In this document: one piece after another, positions 2,541-58,030 of the stretch
How positions within the stretch are numbered: the first letter of the stretch is position 1
Layout of the letters: each line of letters begins with the position of its first letter
Source of the DNA: Ostreococcus lucimarinus
Taxonomy: Eukaryota
Length of the DNA: 64,000 nt
Strand: one strand, 5' to 3'
Assembly (NCBI GenBank): GCA_000092065.1
Contig: CP000584.1
Translations under genes and position numbers: made by a program
Notes under the pieces: generated by a model
The model's input: the letters and a program-made list of their open reading frames with translations, nothing else
The model's database searches: none
What the model was told of the DNA's origin: nothing

Positions 2541-5500
2541 TTACTCTGGTTTGAGACTCTCTGGGGAGGAGCCATTGTCTTCGTCGCTGCCAGCTCTAGC
2601 CTCTGCCCTTGACCGTCTTCGGAACACTCCTTGAGCAGACGAAAGCCAGCCAGTTAAAATACTCGCCGACGCCGTGCTGAGTGTTTTTGGACGTCTCGTA
2701 TCGAATGCCAACTCCGGATCGTCCGATGACTCAAGATCGGAAGAGCTACCAGAGTCGGAAGTGAGCGCTTGGCGTTTTGGGCCTCCGGACAGCGGCGTAT
2801 TCGCGAGGCTCATTTCCTTTTCTGCGCGCGAGCGTTGCAACCATTGACTCATCACCGAAGCAGCCACGTAAGAAACTGGTTGGCGTTCTGGTGAGGCGGA
2901 ATCACTGGACAACTGAGAAGACGAATCACCGGAATCATCCGAAAGATTCGCTTTCGGTGCAGACGGAGGCACGCTTGCGCGCATCTCTCTCGCTCTCGTC
3001 AACCAGTCTCGCATGACCATCTTTGAAGTTTGACTCATGTGCTCAGTCGTGGCGTACTTGGGTTCTGTATCAGTGTCACTTTCCGACGAGAAGTCAGTCG
3101 AAGAGAACACAGCAGTATTCGTGAGCGACGATTGTCTGTTTGCACGAAGTTGCTTAACCGCAGCCAACCAACCCGTAAGGGCGGCAGAAGAAGCTTCGGA
3201 AAGATTGACAGGCGGGAACCGTTGGAGACCAGCCTCTGTCTCACTTTCAGACGTATCAGAGAGCATGCGGAGATTTACTCCGCGTCCAGATGCTCTCGAA
3301 GCGGCGTGTGTGAGCCATATTCGCATGGCTGCTTCAGCACCCACTGATAGCTTCACTTCTCCGAAGTCTTCTTCCATATCCGAGTCTGACTCTGACATCT
3401 CACCAGCCTTCATTCTACGACGCACAGCTTTTCCGAGTTTCAGCCGCCTTGCAGTACGAGGAGATAGAATTTCTTGTAACTGATCAATGACCCAGTCCCT
3501 ATTCTTTGACATGAAAAGATGGCGGAACTGATCACTCGTGAGGTCGGCCGTCGTGACATCCATCGTTTGGAGGCTGTCGCCACCGCTATCCTCAATCACG
3601 GCTGCCATTTTAGGTACGAAAATGGAAGAAAAATCCTCATCAAGAGAATCCTCGATGATGATTTCCCCAGACGTGATCGAAGAAGTGATTCGCCAGAGGC
3701 CGAAGTGATTTGCCAAGAGGAGGGCGAGACGCTTTGCCGTGTAAGATGCGCCGAGAACCATGAGAACACAAGCCCAGAAGAGGATATCTTCAAACATGTT
3801 GTAGTTTGCTCGGAGCATCATGGAGAGAGCGAGGACGAACAAGAAAGATCCCGAGCCGCCGAGCGCAAGCACAAAGTAGAACTGACTCGAGAAGCACATT
3901 TGATCAATCGCGCGAAGACCGGGGTCAATTGATTCATCGTAAACGCGTTCGAAACCTTTCCATCGCGACGTACGATTGATGAATCGATATCGAGCGTACT
4001 TCAAATACTCGTACACCTTCCAGCCATGGAACAATTCCTGAATGTTGAAAGTTATGATGTCCATGACAATCCAGAACGGAATAATCACGACAGAGAAGAG
4101 AAGATAAATCAAAAGATCCTTCTTTCTGAAACCGTACAGGTACGACAGTCTCAGCTGGTCGTTGAAATCCCAGAAAAAGAAAATGAAGAAAGGCGTCATG
4201 TAGTTAACAGCCGTGTTTACGCCGTAAGCGGCGAGGAAGCCCATTAAATCTTCGACCAACGTATCTTCTGCATCGATTTTTTCCTCTACTTCGACGTCAT
4301 CGTCGTCACCAAAGTTAAATGGTAACAAATTCATGATGTAGTTCACGACTGCGCTGATTTTGTCTGGGAGTACGAGGGCGCAGTACGCGATGAACGCATC
4401 AAGATATACGTACTCGACCATACCCATGATAGTCTCGAAAAAGAAACCAAGGGTGAAATCTGTAAAGTCATCGGCTCCGATCGTCGCAACGCCAACGGCT
4501 GAAGCAAGTACGACCGATACTGGAGCGAGTAAGAAAGCTTCTCCCAACGCGGTTTCTATCTGCATTTCCATGATTACGTGAGCGACCTTCAAGAGGAAGA
4601 AAATGGTAAAGAACTGGACACCGAACGTATCAGTAAACGAGAACTCAATCAAGAAGACATTTGTCACGTTAACTAAGATATTCATCAAAACGAAATGACT
4701 TCGTTTCCAGACTTCTGGTTTGAACATCACTTCATCGACGTAGCGCTCGTCCTCCAATTCCTTCTCTTCTTCGTCTTTCAGTTCGGCAGGGACTAAGATT
4801 TCGGCGGCGCATCCCATCATATACATACCAGCTGTCAAAAAGCAGACTGCGTATCGACCAGCGGTCGCTTTTTCTACGACAGCTGGATCGATTTCACGGC
4901 CGATATTATCAATACTGATCGGGAACTCTGTAATGATTGGGAACGCGACAAACACGGCCCGGAGTCCGAACTGCGCTGTCGCAAACGGTAACATGCCGAG
5001 CGTGACACCCATCAGAGGTGGACCAATCATTATTCGAAGATATGGTAAGAATCGGAATCTCGGTGGTTCTTTCAATAGTGTGAAGATTCTCACGACCACC
5101 CACACAGAAAAGATCAACAACACGACGAGCATTCCGATCGCAAAGAAAAGCGCCAAGTAGAACAGGAAATCAAAAGCAAAGAAATTGAGCAAATCGAACC
5201 AACCTAGCGCTGATACCGCCACGCTAAGCGTGTAAGTACCATCGTGAGCCGTAGCGGATACGTATTCGTCCATCGTCACCGTGGCCGCGATGATTCGTTT
5301 GTCTGAGTCGGTGAATTGATAGTACAAGATCTCAAATTCAACCTTCGTCGGCATCAAACCAGCCGTCAAAACGAATCCTTCGACGGGCGCAAAAATCACA
5401 GGAATATTTTCTTGCGCCGTGATATCGGCCATGTACTTCTCTTTATTTGCGGCTGGCTCCGTCTGGTCGTTCGCCAGGGCGCTTGCTTCGAAAAGAGCGT

Positions 5501-22981: not shown

Positions 22982-24490
22982 ATGACGACGCTCGCGGACT
23001 CGTTCCTGGCGGATCTGGACGATCTGAGCGACGACGACGCGCGCGACGGCGACGACGACGCGCGCGCGCGCGCGAACGCGAACGCGAACGATGCGACGGC
23101 GCGCGCGGGGACGACGGCGGCGGCGCGCGCGGAGGATTTGGACGACGTGGCGACGCTGACGACGACGGAGAGGTATCTCAGGGTGACGCGCGCGGTGGAC
23201 GAAGCGATGGAAAGGGATGGGATGGACGGCGCGACGACGACGGCGTCGGGAAAGCGCGCGGGGGCGATCGACGAGGGCGCGGAGGCGCTCGTGGTGGAGT
23301 GCAACGCGCTCACGGTGGAGGTGGACAACGAAGTCGCCGTCGTGCATCAGTACATTAAAGACAGGTATAAGAGTAAATTCCCAGAGTTAGAGTCCTTGGT
23401 GCTGCATCCGATCGATTACGCGCGAGTGGTGAAGGCGATCGGGAACGAGATGGACATGATGGGGGTGGAATTGGACGGCGTGTTGCCGTCGGCGACCATC
23501 ATGGTGGTGAGCGTCACGGGATCGACGACGTCTGGACAACCGCTGAGCGAGAGCGATTTGGAGAAGACTTTACGCGCGTGTGATCGAGCGTTAGAGCTCG
23601 ATGAGGCGAAAAAGAAGATGTTCAACTACGTCGCCACGCGCATGGCGGACACGGCGCCAAATTTGAGCGCAGTATTGGGAAGCGACATCGCGGCGCAGCT
23701 CATCGGCATCGCCGGCGGCTTGCACGCTCTGTCGAAAATGCCGGCTTGTAACGTCCAAGTTTTGGGGTCTAAGAAGAAGGCGACCGCGGGCATGTCGAGT
23801 GCATCGGCTGTGCGAGCGGGAGATTTGCACGCTGGCTTCATTTACGACTGCGACATTATCCAAAAGAAGACGCCGCCCGCGTGGCGAAGCAAGGCGGCTC
23901 GTCTGATTGGCGCAAAGTGTTCGCTTATGGCGCGCGTCGATGCGTACGGGGAGTCCCCGGACGGTGCCACTGGGAAGAAGTTTGCCGAAGAAATCATGAA
24001 AAAAATTGAAAAGTGGCAGGAGCCGCCTCCCGCGCGAACGGCGAAACCTTTACCCGCGCCTGGAGTCGAGCAAAAGAAACGCCGAGGCGGTCGCCGCGCG
24101 AGAGCGCTCAAGGAAAGATACGGTCTCACGGACATGCGCAAGGCGGCGAATCGCGTGAATTTCAACGAAGTCGAAGAAGAGGTGGGATACGATGGCGAAG
24201 GTCTCGGCACGCTGGGTTCCGCCGCGGGCTCCGCCGCCGTCGCCGGCAGAATGCGACTCGCCGCGAAGGCGGCCAAGCTCATCAAGACGGATAACAAGGG
24301 CGGAAAATCCACGTTTGCTAGCACGGCTGGGACGTCCGGGATGGCATCTAGCCTGGCTTTCACGCCGGTCCAAGGAATTGAACTCGTAAATCCGAACAGA
24401 ACGGCATCGGATGGTCCAGTCTCTGGCACCGACAGCGTCTTCTCCGAGCGCCGCGGCTTTTCAAACGTCGCGCGACAGCTCAAGCGATAA
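22982..24490 (+). CDS. PRP31: U4/U6 snRNP protein PRP31 (Nop domain)
   Basis: MTTLADSFLADLDDLSDDD N-terminus, a Nop-domain core (FNYVATRMADTAPNLSAVLGSDIAAQLIGIAGGLHALSKMPACNVQVLG), and a C-terminal KKRRGGRRARALKERYGLTDMRKAANRVNF motif. Confidence 0.9.
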   Translation: MTTLADSFLADLDDLSDDDARDGDDDARARANANANDATARAGTTAAARAEDLDDVATLTTTERYLRVTRAVDEAMERDGMDGATTTASGKRAGAIDEGAEALVVECNALTVEVDNEVAVVHQYIKDRYKSKFPELESLVLHPIDYARVVKAIGNEMDMMGVELDGVLPSATIMVVSVTGSTTSGQPLSESDLEKTLRACDRALELDEAKKKMFNYVATRMADTAPNLSAVLGSDIAAQLIGIAGGLHALSKMPACNVQVLGSKKKATAGMSSASAVRAGDLHAGFIYDCDIIQKKTPPAWRSKAARLIGAKCSLMARVDAYGESPDGATGKKFAEEIMKKIEKWQEPPPARTAKPLPAPGVEQKKRRGGRRARALKERYGLTDMRKAANRVNFNEVEEEVGYDGEGLGTLGSAAGSAAVAGRMRLAAKAAKLIKTDNKGGKSTFASTAGTSGMASSLAFTPVQGIELVNPNRTASDGPVSGTDSVFSERRGFSNVARQLKR

Positions 24491-24570
24491 CGAACGCACA
24501 GAGGATTACGCCTAGAGAATTGATGAATACAAAAATACAAATTCTAGTCGTCGGATGCGCCTGATATGAT

Positions 24571-24620
24571 ATCGGCGTCGTCGCAGAGCTCGCGCTCCCG
24601 GCGCGACGACGCGTCACGGC
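24571..24620 (-). other. Candidate SECIS element in the SelM 3' UTR, 45-90 nt downstream of the stop: GUGA-C-[10-bp helix GCGUCGUCGC/GCGACGACGC]-unpaired CC-[5-bp helix + GCGA tetraloop]-C-GA-U
   Basis: Minus-strand reading of 24571..24620 gives GTGACGCGTCGTCGCGCCGGGAGCGCGAGCTCTGCGACGACGCCGAT. A UGA/GA non-Watson-Crick quartet is possible; 12 nt separate the UGA from an unpaired CC, as in the CC-type SECIS reported for mammalian SelM. The first quartet base is G rather than A. Confidence 0.4.
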
Positions 24621-24662
24621 TCGGCGCGTTCCGCGCGACTCGTTTCCATCCCCGCGTCGCGG

Positions 24663-25085
24663 TTAAAGCTCCACGCGCGCGGTTTCCCTCTCCTGCCCCG
24701 GTCTATAAAAGCCTCGCTCGTTCAAATACGTCTCCACGCGCTCCACCGTCCACTCGCTCGTCAGTTTCGCCGTCTCCACGTTGTTCCCGCGTTCGTCTTG
24801 CATGTGCAGCGACGGCGGGTGTCCCGGCGTCCACGTCACGCCCACGCGTTCGCCGTACCCCCCGACCTCGACGACTTCCTTCAGGAACGTCTTGATCTCC
24901 GGGAGGCGGTTCAATTTTCATCCCGGGCACGATTGGAATTGCGCCCGCGCGAACGCGCCTTCGCCCGCGGTCCCGCGCGCGACGCGCGCGAGCGCGACGC
25001 ACGCGGCGACGACGCGCGCGGCGACGACGCGACGCGCGGGACGACGACGCGTCGTCGTTCGCGTCGTCGTCGCCGTCGACGTCAT
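24663..25085 (-). CDS. SELM: Selenoprotein M / Sep15-family thioredoxin-like selenoprotein. An in-frame TGA (Sec) sits at 24918..24920 within a CPGU redox motif. The true start may lie upstream of the ATG at 25085
   Basis: The ORF track splits this into 24918..25343(-) ending ...FARAQFQSCPG and 24663..24914(-) beginning (L)NRLPEIKTFLKEVV. Joined across the TGA, the sequence reads CPGU-KLNRLPEIKTFLKEVV...HMQDERGNNVETAKLTSEWTVERVETYLNERGF. This parallels mammalian SelM (CGGU-QLNRLKEVKAFV...) and the Sep15 C-terminus. Confidence 0.8.
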
Positions 25086-48833: not shown

Positions 48834-50000
48834 ATGCCGCGCGAGTCGCTGCGTCACGCCATCCCCTCGTCCTACGACGAAGAGATGGAGCAACTCCGCG
48901 TCGCGCTCGAGATATCTGCGCGCGCGTCGACCTCACACGACGTTCACGCGTCGTCCTCGGCGCGAAATTCGCTACGACAATCCGCGGCACCACACGTAAC
49001 GACTTCACCTCGTTTCGTCAACGGGAGCGGCGCGTCGACGCGAACGGCGGGACGAACGGGACGAGTGCTCGTCGATGACGCGCGCGCGCGTCGTCCTGCG
49101 CGCGCGCGCGATGATTTCGCGGACGACGACGATGACGCGCGGGCGACGCTCGCGGAGCGGCTCGAGCGGCGGCACGGCGTCTCGGCGCGAGACGCGCAGC
49201 GCGTGGTGGACGTGCTCGACGGTGACTACGCGCGCGCGGAGGACGTGTGCTTGATCGTAAAAATGGTACCCACGAGTGTGGATCGAGCGATCGCGCATTT
49301 GAGGAACGTGGGATGGGACGTGGATTTGGCGTTGTCGAGGATGTTGGACGCGTCGAAGACGAGCCCGAACGCCGAGACTGAGCGGGAGGAATTGAAGCGG
49401 CGCGCGAGGTCGATGCGACGCCCGGGGGGTGATGGGAAGGCCGACGAAGCGAGGACGGTAAAGCAGAATTTGAACTATACTCCCGGTGCGGGCCATCGCG
49501 AGTCAGAGTCGGGATTTTCGTCGGCGTCGTTTCGCGCGTCTCCCGCCTCGCGAGCGCGCGACGAAGAAACGGAGCGGTATCATCGCGAGCGGTGGGAGAG
49601 CGAAATTTCCGATCGCGCGGCACAAGCGAACAAAGCGAAGTCAAAATGGGACTCATCTCAACCTACCGCGGCATCGACGCCTCGTACGGCGTCGGGATCG
49701 GAGCACGCTCGCGAGACTTTGCGATCCGAACCGCCAAAGCCTTCGCATTCGGCGCCGCGACCCTCTCGCGCGTCCGACCCCCCACTCGCCACCCTCGAGC
49801 GCGAAGGTTTGGTACAAGTTCTCACCGCGCTCGGCGTTGAACCGTCGTCGTCTTCTATCACTGCCGTGCGTTCGGCGTACAGAAAAGCTGCCCTTCGTTT
49901 CCATCCCGACCGTCTCTCCGCCGCCGGCGCGCTCGAGCGCTCCTACAAATCCGACGTCTGGAAGCTTCTCTCGTCCAAGATGGACGCCTACGCCCCCTAG
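48834..50000 (+). CDS. J-domain protein with N-terminal UIM and a putative UBA-like segment
   Basis: UIM (DEEMEQLRVALEISA) at the N-terminus. C-terminal J-domain with the HPD motif (SAYRKAALRFHPDRL). Confidence 0.65.
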   Translation: MPRESLRHAIPSSYDEEMEQLRVALEISARASTSHDVHASSSARNSLRQSAAPHVTTSPRFVNGSGASTRTAGRTGRVLVDDARARRPARARDDFADDDDDARATLAERLERRHGVSARDAQRVVDVLDGDYARAEDVCLIVKMVPTSVDRAIAHLRNVGWDVDLALSRMLDASKTSPNAETEREELKRRARSMRRPGGDGKADEARTVKQNLNYTPGAGHRESESGFSSASFRASPASRARDEETERYHRERWESEISDRAAQANKAKSKWDSSQPTAASTPRTASGSEHARETLRSEPPKPSHSAPRPSRASDPPLATLEREGLVQVLTALGVEPSSSSITAVRSAYRKAALRFHPDRLSAAGALERSYKSDVWKLLSSKMDAYAP

Positions 50001-56434: not shown

Positions 56435-58030
56435 GTGCGCCTCGCGACGCCACACCGCGCTCGTCGACGATCGACGTCGCGCCGGACGCGCGCGATGCAC
56501 AGAACATTCGTCAGGTCGGCCATGCACCGCCGCGTCGTCGCCGCCGCCGCCGCGCGCACGCGCACGACGTCATCCTCGTCCTCGTCCTCGCCGCTCGCCG
56601 CGAGCGTCGTCGCGCGACGTTGGACGCCCGGACGTCCCGCGCAGCGCGCGACGCTCGCCACGCGAGCGAGCGCAACGAGCGAAGCGCCCGCGTTGAATGC
56701 GTCGGGGGAGACGAACAAGGCGCTGGCGTGGAAGGCGGCGATCGATTTCAAGTTTGTGCGGGACAACGCCGAGTTGGTGCAAAAGAACGCGACGACGAGA
56801 AAGGTGGACGTGGATGTGCAGGAAATCATCGCGAAATACGAGGCGTTGAACGCGTTGAACTTTAAGTGCGATGAACTTCGCGAGCGTCGAAACGCGAACG
56901 CGAAGAGCATGAAGGGGAAGATGGATAAAGAGGTTCGGGACGGGTTGATTGCCGAGGGCAAGGCGATTAAGGACGAGCTCGCGGCGCTCGAAGGCGATCT
57001 CGCCGGACTCGAGAGCGAGTTACAAACCATGGCGCAGAGGTTGCCAAACTTGACACACCCGGATGTGCCGATCGGCAGCGAAGAAAATACGGTGACTCGG
57101 GCGACGGTGGGTGAGCAGCGCGCGTTTACGTTTCCAGTGCAAAATCACGTCGACGTCGGCGAAAAGCTTGGGATGTTCGACTTCGAGACTGGAAGCAAGG
57201 TGAGTGGTAGTCGTTTCGTCTACCTCACCGGTGTTGGAGCTATGCTTGAGTTAGCTCTGATCAACTGGGCGTTCGCCAAGGTTTTGAGCAAAGGTTTCAA
57301 GCCCATGATGGTGCCAGACATGGTGCGTAGCAGCGTGGTGGAGAAGTGCGGATTCCAGCCGCGGGCAGAGAACACGCAAGTGTATAGCATTGAAAACTCC
57401 GATCTCTGTATGGCGGGTACGGCTGAACTATTATTGGGTGGAGTATACATGGATGAAGTTGTGGAAGAATCGCAACTCCCTATCAAAATGGCGGCCTTCA
57501 GTCATTGTTTCCGCACTGAAGCCGGCGCCGCCGGCGCGCAGACTCGGGGCATGTATCGTTTGCATCAGTTTAGCAAGGTGGAGATGTTCGTCGTGGCCAC
57601 GCCTGAGCAATCTGACGCACTTCACGAGGAGCTCATCGGCATCGAGACTGAAATGTTTGCAGAGCTCGGCTTCCACTTCAAAGTTTTGGACATGCCCACG
57701 GAGGACTTAGGCGCACCGGCATATCGCAAATTCGACGTCGAAGCGTGGATGCCCGCGCTCGAACGGTACGGCGAAATTTCGAGTGCCTCGAACTGCACGG
57801 ATTATCAAGCGAGGCGGCTGAATATAAAGTACAGACCGAATGCCGTCGATGGCAAGAAGCAGCCGCTTATGCACTGCCACACTCTCAACGCGACGGCGTG
57901 CGCGATTCCTCGTATGATCGTCACCATCCTCGAAAATTTCCAGCAAGAAGATGGAAGCGTCGTCGTACCCGAGCCGTTGCGACCGTACCTCGGTGGCATG
58001 GATGTTTTGCGTCCGGAAGAGGGGAAATAG
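56435..58030 (+). CDS. SARS2: Seryl-tRNA synthetase (organellar type, with presequence; alternative start 56495)
   Basis: Class II motifs. GAMLELALINWAFAKVLSKGFKPMMVPDMVRSSVVEKCGF...FSHCFRTEAGAAGAQTRGMYRLHQFSKVEMFV...CHTLNATACAIPRMIVTILENFQQEDGSVVVPEPLRPY. Confidence 0.9.
   Translation: MRLATPHRARRRSTSRRTRAMHRTFVRSAMHRRVVAAAAARTRTTSSSSSSSPLAASVVARRWTPGRPAQRATLATRASATSEAPALNASGETNKALAWKAAIDFKFVRDNAELVQKNATTRKVDVDVQEIIAKYEALNALNFKCDELRERRNANAKSMKGKMDKEVRDGLIAEGKAIKDELAALEGDLAGLESELQTMAQRLPNLTHPDVPIGSEENTVTRATVGEQRAFTFPVQNHVDVGEKLGMFDFETGSKVSGSRFVYLTGVGAMLELALINWAFAKVLSKGFKPMMVPDMVRSSVVEKCGFQPRAENTQVYSIENSDLCMAGTAELLLGGVYMDEVVEESQLPIKMAAFSHCFRTEAGAAGAQTRGMYRLHQFSKVEMFVVATPEQSDALHEELIGIETEMFAELGFHFKVLDMPTEDLGAPAYRKFDVEAWMPALERYGEISSASNCTDYQARRLNIKYRPNAVDGKKQPLMHCHTLNATACAIPRMIVTILENFQQEDGSVVVPEPLRPYLGGMDVLRPEEGK

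What the first reader, a model, noticed from the sequence alone, without database searches (positions are those of the whole stretch)
24571..24620. Candidate non-canonical (GUGA, CC-type) SECIS element immediately downstream of the SelM stop
On the minus strand, 45-90 nt past the TAA, the sequence GUGA-C-GCGUCGUCGC-G-CC-G-GGAGC-GCGA-GCUCU-GCGACGACGC-C-GA-U can fold as a perfect 10-bp helix closed by a UGA/GA quartet. An unpaired CC lies 12 nt after the UGA, and a short distal helix is capped by a GNRA loop. Mammalian SelM is the classic example of a SECIS with CC in place of the conserved AA, so finding the same variant next to a SelM homologue is striking. The first quartet nucleotide is G rather than A, which is rare. 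The 3' UTR shared with the convergent PRP31 gene is only 172 nt, so there is little other room for a SECIS.
Basis: partly seen in the sequence, partly recalled or inferred. Interest (0 to 1): 0.6.

Follow-up and report, generated by a model that had tools for sequence, protein, structure and literature searches.

The report
SelM selenocysteine-insertion hairpin, CC variant
The hairpin is almost certainly the real signal (SECIS element) that lets the ribosome read the in-frame UGA of an Ostreococcus selenoprotein M gene as selenocysteine. It is an expected part of an already catalogued gene, and its only unusual feature is that two normally conserved adenines have become cytosines in this lineage.

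Summary
On the minus strand, 46-92 nt past the SelM stop codon, lies GUGA-C, an 11-bp helix, unpaired CC(GG), a 4-bp mini-stem with a GCGA loop, then C-GA-U.

- **Gene:** it carries a Sep15/SelM domain and a CPG-UGA (CxxU) motif. The window matches O. lucimarinus.
- **Conservation:** about ten Ostreococcus lineages and Micromonas pusilla share the same gene order. All Ostreococcus lineages keep GUGAC…[C/U]GA[U/G]. Micromonas has AUGAC…CGAU.
- **Structure:** helix II shows compensatory changes at 4 of 11 pairs.
- **Independent test:** a covariance model built only from orthologues outside the window's clade finds this one site in 64 kb (49.9 bits, E~1e-9).
- **Chance:** about 2e-4 for the 172-nt spacer.

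GUGA is the rule in Ostreococcus (Lobanov 2007), not a rarity. The GNRA loop is not conserved.

The CC claim holds. Every other lineage has AAA(A) at exactly that position, so CC is a derived change fixed in the O. lucimarinus clade. One sister contig has CG. This parallels placental-mammal SelM.

The gene and its SECIS were catalogued in 2007. Only the AA-to-CC switch appears undiscussed in the papers I could search. Interest is modest.

The parts
24663..25085 (-). SelM (selenoprotein M) coding sequence. ATG at 25085, in-frame Sec codon TGA at 24920-24918 within a CPG-U (CxxU) motif, stop TAA at 24665-24663. The C-terminus is RVEL, which resembles an ER-retention signal.
   Evidence: Translation. 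Pfam Sep15_SelM, E 6.8e-17. CPG-TGA is conserved in all orthologues. The C-terminal 76 aa are identical to O. lucimarinus XP_001417455.1.
24557..24627 (-). Complete SECIS element, type 2, from the 5' strand of helix I to its 3' strand.
   Evidence: MFE folds. The model built from orthologues of other clades hits 24566-24622(-) at 49.9 bits, E~1e-9, and is the only significant hit in the window.
24623..24627 (-). Helix I 5' strand, GCGCC. It pairs with GGCGC at 24557-24561. The internal loop GAGCC precedes the core.
   Evidence: MFE folds. An equivalent lower helix forms in most orthologues from unrelated sequence.
24613..24617 (-). 5' half of the SECIS core, G-UGA-C. It is the kink-turn quartet strand. 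G24615 and A24614 are expected to form sheared pairs with A24572 and G24573.
   Evidence: GUGAC is invariant in 12 distinct Ostreococcus sequences. Micromonas has AUGAC. The non-Watson-Crick pairing itself is inferred.
24602..24612 (-). Helix II 5' strand, GCGUCGUCGCG.
   Evidence: 11 pairs, 93.9% of cells paired, and 4 pairs with changes on both sides. Slid controls reach at most 56%. RNAalifold predicts the same helix.
24598..24601 (-). Unpaired apical bulge CCGG. CC at 24601-24600 occupies the position of the conserved AA motif.
   Evidence: It aligns with AAA(A) in O. tauri and five or six other Ostreococcus lineages. CC is invariant in more than 20 contigs of the window's clade.
24586..24597 (-). 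Mini-stem (helix III) GAGC/GCUC capped by a GCGA loop.
   Evidence: A mini-stem is present in the orthologues, but loop sequence and length vary.
24575..24585 (-). Helix II 3' strand, UGCGACGACGC.
24571..24574 (-). 3' half of the SECIS core, C-GA-U.
   Evidence: GA is invariant. The flanks are C or U on the 5' side and U or G on the 3' side across lineages.
24528..24539 (-). Two UGUA motifs in a conserved AU-rich block. This is a putative poly(A) signal that would end the SelM mRNA just after the SECIS.
   Evidence: Block conserved. A UGUA lies downstream of the SECIS in every orthologous UTR. Its function is inferred from my own knowledge of green-algal UGUAA signals and was not tested.
22982..24490 (+). 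Convergent PRP31 (U4/U6 snRNP) gene that bounds the 172-nt spacer.
   Evidence: ORF. 100% identity to P0005 and 81% to O. tauri Prp31. Pfam Nop and Prp31_C in syntenic loci.

Best explanation
The hairpin at 24557-24627 on the minus strand is the functional type-2 SECIS element of the SelM mRNA of Ostreococcus lucimarinus or a near-identical clade-A strain.

Proposed mechanism:
- The GUGA/GA strands form a kink-turn with tandem sheared G-A pairs. The SECIS-binding protein (an SBP2 orthologue) recognises this fold.
- Through the Sec-specific elongation factor and Sec-tRNA, this recodes the UGA at 24920-24918 (CPG-U) as selenocysteine rather than stop.
- Helix II sets the distance to an unpaired apical motif. 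That motif is AAA(A) in related lineages and has become CC in this clade without loss of function.

Shown here: position, motif conservation, covariation, uniqueness in the window, and purifying selection on the coding sequence downstream of the UGA.

Inferred: the non-Watson-Crick pairing, protein binding and actual Sec insertion.
For: 1. **Gene context.**
- Sep15/SelM domain.
- In-frame TGA at the CxxU position, conserved in every orthologue.
- Lobanov 2007 lists one SelM selenoprotein in O. lucimarinus.

2. **Core and helix II.**
- The GUGAC…GA core is invariant in 12 distinct Ostreococcus sequences.
- Helix II is kept through 4 double compensatory changes, with 93.9% of cells paired against at most 56% in slid controls.

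3. **Orthologue comparison.** Orthologues carry the canonical AAA(A) exactly where the window has CC, 12 nt after UGA. Micromonas has AUGA…AUAAAA…GA at the syntenic site.

4. **Independent model.** A covariance model built without the window's clade scores the site 49.9 bits (E~1e-9). The next best hit has E 0.9 and is the reverse strand of the same hairpin.

5. **Chance.** Expectation is about 0.17 per 128 kb.

6. **Selection.** dN/dS is 0.18-0.38 for the 84 codons after the UGA within the CC/CG clade, so the region past UGA is translated.

7. **Lineage norm.** GUGA plus a mini-stem is the published Ostreococcus SECIS signature.
Against: - No Rfam SECIS family matches, even at E<=10. The same is true of the AAAA-type O. 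tauri orthologue, so this negative says little.
- Folding-energy z-scores are not significant.
- The base before the 3' GA is C rather than the consensus G/U.
- The nearest sister contig, L011, has CG instead of CC and a C-A mismatch in helix II.
- There are no transcript or selenium-labelling data for this gene here.
Confidence: 0.92

Rival explanations
1. The hairpin is a generic GC-rich palindrome with no role in recoding. It could be a by-product of the (GTC)n/(GAC)n-rich composition, or a bidirectional 3'-end or terminator structure shared by the convergent SelM and PRP31 genes.
For: - The region is rich in GTC/GAC repeats.
- Folding z-scores are unremarkable.
- The helix is nearly palindromic, so the plus strand also gives a weak model hit of 11.5 bits.
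- It sits between two convergent genes.
Against: - The strand-specific flanks GUGAC and CGAU are invariant, and the orthologues have AAAA only in the SelM sense.
- The model scores 49.9 bits on the minus strand against 11.5 on the plus strand.
- The geometry is unique in 128 kb.
- L055/L056, which lack SelM at this site, give no model hit downstream of PRP31.
Confidence: 0.03
2. It is a decaying SECIS. Loss of the AA motif (CC here, CG in L011) means the element is weakened or dead, and SelM in this clade is on its way to truncation or pseudogenisation.
For: - The AA motif is lost only in this clade.
- L011 adds a helix mismatch and has neither AA nor CC.
- Another Ostreococcus lineage (L055/L056) has no SelM at the syntenic site.
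Against: - CC-type SECIS elements occur in mammalian SelM, SelO and Trxr3 (PMC3316567 and PMC2761289).
- The UGA and the full downstream ORF are intact in more than 20 contigs, with dN/dS 0.18-0.38.
- CC is fixed, not polymorphic.
Confidence: 0.05

Closest known systems
Ostreococcus tauri / O. lucimarinus SECIS elements (Lobanov et al. 2007, Genome Biol 8:R198, PMC2375036)
   Same: - G before the UGA core, type-2 architecture with a mini-stem, and a location in a short 3' UTR.
- The O. tauri SelM orthologue (L013) has the same GUGAC, 11-bp helix and CGAU frame.
- That paper already counts the SelM selenoprotein of O. lucimarinus.
   Different: - O. tauri SelM has AAAA in the apical bulge, while this element has CC.
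- The paper's text and accessible supplements show only O. tauri SECIS sequences and do not mention a CC variant.
Placental-mammal SELENOM SECIS (CC-type; Mariotti et al. 2012, PMC3316567; Korotkov et al. 2002, from my own knowledge)
   Same: Same protein family. The same substitution of the two unpaired apical adenines by cytosines occurs, and relatives keep AA: non-placental vertebrates there, other Ostreococcus lineages and Micromonas here.
   Different: - The origin is independent, since AA is ancestral in both groups.
- The mammalian core is AUGA.
- Mariotti 2012, looking only at vertebrates, concluded that CC forms 'evolved specifically in mammals'.
Micromonas pusilla SelM SECIS (L057 5575-5623, minus strand)
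   Same: Syntenic position, convergent with PRP31. The UGAC…CGAU core flanks, helix II of about 9 bp, mini-stem and CSG-U selenoprotein are all shared.
   Different: The core is AUGA rather than GUGA, the apical motif is AUAAAA, and the helix sequence is unrelated. The Ostreococcus model does not detect it.

Membership tests
Eukaryotic SECIS element (type 2) | Lies in the 3' UTR of an mRNA whose in-frame UGA aligns with Sec/Cys of a known selenoprotein family. | tested here: met
   The element starts 46 nt after the SelM stop. The CPG-UGA motif sits in a Sep15/SelM domain protein and is conserved in all orthologues.
Eukaryotic SECIS element (type 2) | Core quartet: UGA on the 5' strand and GA on the 3' strand (consensus UGAN/KGAW, PMC3753652). 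| tested here: met
   UGAC and GAU are present and invariant. The base before GA is C rather than K. This deviation is shared by most Ostreococcus orthologues and by Micromonas. The sheared G-A pairing itself cannot be tested here.
Eukaryotic SECIS element (type 2) | Helix II of about 9-12 bp between the core and the apical unpaired nucleotides, maintained in evolution. | tested here: met
   11 bp, with 4 pairs showing double compensatory changes and 93.9% of cells paired.
Eukaryotic SECIS element (type 2) | Conserved unpaired AA (rarely CC) 10-13 nt after the core. | tested here: met
   CC lies 12 nt after UGA and is homologous to AAA(A) in the orthologues. This is the recognised minority variant, not the AA majority form.
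Eukaryotic SECIS element (type 2) | Helix I plus an internal loop below the core, and an additional mini-stem (helix III) above the apical bulge. | tested here: met
   MFE folds of the window and of most orthologues show both. Helix I covariation was not formally counted, because the flanks cannot be aligned.
Eukaryotic SECIS element (type 2) | Match to the curated Rfam SECIS covariance models. | tested here: not met
   No SECIS hit at gathering threshold or at E<=10. The canonical AAAA-type O. tauri orthologue also fails. The SECISearch3 authors excluded Ostreococcus from their consensus model because its SECIS elements are lineage-specific. This is therefore a limit of the model, not evidence against membership.
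Eukaryotic SECIS element (type 2) | Binds SBP2 and supports Sec insertion at UGA. | not testable with these tools
   There is only indirect support: dN/dS of 0.18-0.38 downstream of the UGA.
Selenoprotein M (Sep15/SelM family) | Sep15/SelM thioredoxin-like domain with an N-terminal CxxU redox motif. It lacks the Cys-rich UGGT-binding domain of Sep15. | tested here: met
   Pfam PF08806 at 61.7 bits over residues 50-126. CPGU lies at residues 53-56 of a 140-aa protein, preceded only by a short basic and hydrophobic leader.

The most novel reading that the evidence does not exclude
The AA-to-CC replacement in the SelM SECIS arose independently in placental mammals and in the O. lucimarinus clade, and a sister lineage carries CG. 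This would mean the substitution is not an accident. One reading is that the apical 'AA' contact is dispensable or re-tuned specifically for SelM mRNAs, for example to set a distinct Sec-insertion efficiency or selenium-hierarchy rank. The other is that the Ostreococcus recoding machinery tolerates any apical dinucleotide.
Probability: 0.12. Interest if true: 0.5.

Novelty: already known. Interest (0 to 1): 0.3.

Why it matters
This is correct annotation rather than discovery.

- **Annotation:** it shows that the NCBI gene model for this locus (XP_001417455.1) is truncated or mis-spliced to avoid the UGA. The true product is a 140-aa selenoprotein.
- **Detection:** Rfam's SECIS models miss Ostreococcus SECIS elements altogether.
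- **Possible new point:** the apical AA motif, whose role Mariotti et al. 2012 describe as not known, was replaced by CC within one algal genus. This happened in the same protein family where placental mammals made the same change.
- **Use:** O. tauri (AAAA), O. lucimarinus (CC) and the L011 lineage (CG) form a natural allelic series for testing what the motif does.

Tried and rejected
- **Rfam 15.** There were no SECIS hits at gathering threshold on the whole window or at E<=10 on 24400-24760. Controls on orthologues showed that Rfam also misses the canonical O. tauri element, so I discounted this negative.
- **Lobanov 2007 supplements.** I searched them for the SelM alignment and SECIS sequences. 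No searchable text was found, and file 1 is only a flow chart.
- **First metagenome query.** It worked with 7 closer sequences.
- **MAFFT alignment A5.** The nine non-window-clade orthologues came out of register because four carry a 1-nt bulge. I rebuilt the alignment with the bulged base removed (A6) before making the model. This edit affects only the model input.
- **Model reach.** Model R1 does not reach Micromonas. I read that element by eye from the sequence.
- **A better canonical AUGA element.** None was found. The only AUGA-type look-alikes in the window are 56572(-) and 49076(+). Both lack an apical AA/CC, and 49076(+) lies inside a 388-aa ORF.
- **Corroborating the CG variant of L011.** The PRP31-based look-ups (P0009, P0006, P0010, P0011) returned other lineages, not L011's.

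Full report
**What is in the sequence.**
- Minus strand 25085-24663 encodes a 140-codon ORF interrupted by one in-frame TGA (24920-24918) within ...AQFQSCPG-U-KLNRLPEIK.... It ends in RVEL followed by TAA.
- With the TGA read as Cys, the product matches Pfam Sep15_SelM (61.7 bits, E 6.8e-17). The CxxU motif directly after a short leader is the SelM arrangement.
- The convergent plus-strand ORF ending at 24490 is PRP31, so the spacer is 24491-24662, or 172 nt.
- RNAfold returns that helix, distal stem and GCGA loop as the MFE and centroid structure. In the full spacer it adds a lower helix, GCGCC 24627-24623 with GGCGC 24561-24557.

**Is it more than chance?**
- Folding-energy z-scores are unremarkable (-0.5 and -0.9), as expected in a GC-rich, (GTC)n-rich region.
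- The specific geometry is rare. UGA-N, then 11 consecutive pairs, then N-GA occurs once on the two strands of the 64-kb window, at this site.
- It occurs 0.17 times per dinucleotide shuffle, which gives roughly 2e-4 for a 172-nt target.
- GUGA at 24617 is also the only UGA in the spacer.

**Organism.**
- The post-UGA ORF is 99% identical to P0001. Its 90% identity cluster contains XP_001417455.1 of Ostreococcus lucimarinus CCE9901.
- That NCBI model is identical to the window over its last 76 residues but has an unrelated N-terminus, MRHRASR. The annotation evidently avoided the UGA.
- PRP31 is 81% identical to O. tauri Prp31.
- The window is therefore O. lucimarinus or a near-identical clade-A strain.

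**Comparative test.** The SelM/PRP31 convergent arrangement is conserved. Using it together with one metagenome scan, I collected the SelM 3' UTR from about ten Ostreococcus lineages and from Micromonas pusilla. All retain CPG-UGA, or CSG-UGA in Micromonas. In SelM sense the elements read as follows:

| Lineage | Element |
|---|---|
| Window clade (more than 20 contigs) | GUGA C GCGUCGUCGCG CCGG GAGC-GCGA-GCUC UGCGACGACGC C GA U |
| L026-28 | same, with CCAG |
| L011 | GCGUCGCCGCG CGAG GAGC-GCA-GCUC ... |
| L029-36 | GCGCCGUUUGCG AAAA ... |
| L037-43 | GCACCGUUCGCG AAAAAA ... |
| L044 / L052 | GCGUCGGUGCG AAAAA ... U GA U |
| L017 | GCAUCGGUGCG CAAAA ... |
| L015 / L045 | GCUGUUGUCGCG AAA ... 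|
| L014 / L046-51 | GCCUCGCCGUG AAAA ... |
| O. tauri (L013) | GUGUUGUCGCG AAAA ... UGCGAGGACAC C GA U |

**Structure and independent-model results.**
- On a 12-sequence MAFFT alignment, GUGAC and GA are invariant.
- The 11-bp helix II has 93.9% of cells paired, against 31-56% when the 3' partner is slid. Four pairs changed on both sides, and 0 of 500 shuffles reached the observed covariation score.
- RNAalifold independently predicts the same 11 pairs.
- Unconstrained folds of extended segments show a lower helix I in most lineages, built from unrelated sequences.
- I built covariance model R1 from nine orthologues that exclude the window's clade. Four had a single bulged base removed to keep register.
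- With filters off, R1 finds 24566-24622(-) at 49.9 bits, E~1e-9. The next hit is the reverse strand of the same hairpin, at E 0.9.

**Function.**
- Within the CC/CG clade, the 84 codons downstream of the UGA evolve with dN/dS 0.18-0.38. No stops or frameshifts appear in more than 20 contigs. The UGA is therefore read through in these lineages, so the CC element works. This is an inference.
- The mechanism is the standard eukaryotic one and is inferred from the family. The GUGA/GA kink-turn is bound by SBP2, which recruits eEFSec with Sec-tRNA to the UGA.

- **CC in place of AA: supported.** CC at 24601-24600 occupies the columns that hold AAA(A) in every other Ostreococcus lineage and AUAAAA in Micromonas. 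It is derived and fixed in the O. lucimarinus clade. One sister contig (L011, 1 kb) has CG plus a C-A mismatch in helix II, and I could not corroborate it with a second contig.
- **'G instead of A is rare': not for this genus.** Lobanov et al. [quoted passage not shown]
- **GNRA loop: incidental.** It is not conserved.
- **An additional deviation.** The base before the 3' GA is C, outside the SECISearch3 consensus KGAW, but it is conserved in this gene across genera.

**Why Rfam is silent.** No SECIS family matches the window at gathering threshold or at E<=10. The AAAA-type O. tauri orthologue is not matched either. The SECISearch3 authors explicitly left Ostreococcus SECIS elements out of their consensus model as lineage-specific. 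The negative therefore reflects model scope.

**Comparison with the literature.**
- Lobanov 2007 lists one SelM selenoprotein in O. lucimarinus, and their search pattern allowed NTGA__CC__GA. The gene and its SECIS are therefore already catalogued.
- The paper shows only O. tauri SECIS sequences and does not mention a CC variant. The 2020 algal selenoproteome paper does not discuss apical motifs.
- Mariotti et al. 2012 found CC only in SelM of placental mammals and in SelO of mammals, among vertebrates. Latreche et al. 2009 add Trxr3 in human.
- A CC SelM SECIS in a green alga is thus an independent recurrence of a known minority variant in the same family. It is a curiosity and possibly coincidence. 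With about 26-29 SECIS elements per genome, landing in SelM or SelO by chance is roughly 1 in 10, and I could not examine the other SECIS elements of this genome.

**Verdict.** The element is a real and almost certainly functional SECIS belonging to a previously reported selenoprotein gene. Novelty is low (already known). Interest is modest at 0.3, and rests on the lineage-specific AA-to-CC (and CG) switch.

Noticed in passing
window 24663-25085 (-); proteins P0140 and P0001: The public gene model for this locus in O. lucimarinus (XP_001417455.1, 84 aa, 'predicted protein') has an unrelated N-terminus, MRHRASR, joined to the post-UGA part. It misses the Sec codon and the leader. The same ORF is also deposited as 'hypothetical protein [bacterium]' (MDA9627149.1), which suggests an Ostreococcus contig binned into a bacterial MAG.
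   Followed up: partly
L055 3118-3801 and L056: An Ostreococcus-like lineage (PRP31 82% identical to the window's) has no SelM gene and no SECIS hit between PRP31 and the sugar transporter. SelM seems to be lost or relocated there.
   Followed up: partly
window 24528-24550 (-) and orthologous UTRs: An AU-rich block, UAGAAUUUGUAUUUUUGUAUUCAUCAAU, is nearly identical between the window and L011. A UGUA motif lies 40-95 nt downstream of the SECIS in every lineage, including Micromonas. It is probably the poly(A) signal region shared by the two convergent genes.
   Followed up: no
L007 about 3335-3345: One 263-kb contig of the window's clade has an extra G between the helix II 3' strand and the core GA (GCC-G-GAU instead of GCC-GAU). 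This lowers the model score to 40.9 bits. It could be a polymorphism next to the kink-turn or an assembly error.
   Followed up: no
L057 5575-5623 (-): The Micromonas pusilla SelM gene (CSG-U) is also convergent with PRP31. It carries a canonical AUGA…AUAAAA…GA SECIS with the same UGAC/CGAU core flanks. Gene order and element position therefore predate the Ostreococcus/Micromonas split.
   Followed up: partly
window 49075-49117 (+) and about 56510-56573 (-): Two AUGA-C…C/U-GA hairpin look-alikes are built from (GC)n or GCG-rich repeats. Neither has an apical AA/CC. The first lies inside a 388-aa ORF (48834-50000), and the model hit there has E 3.6. I judged both to be chance.
   Followed up: partly
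L012 (636-bp contig, coverage 1.8): The coding part of SelM is riddled with substitutions (79% aa identity), while the 3' UTR and SECIS are identical to the window. This looks like a low-coverage, error-prone assembly rather than a separate lineage.
   Followed up: no
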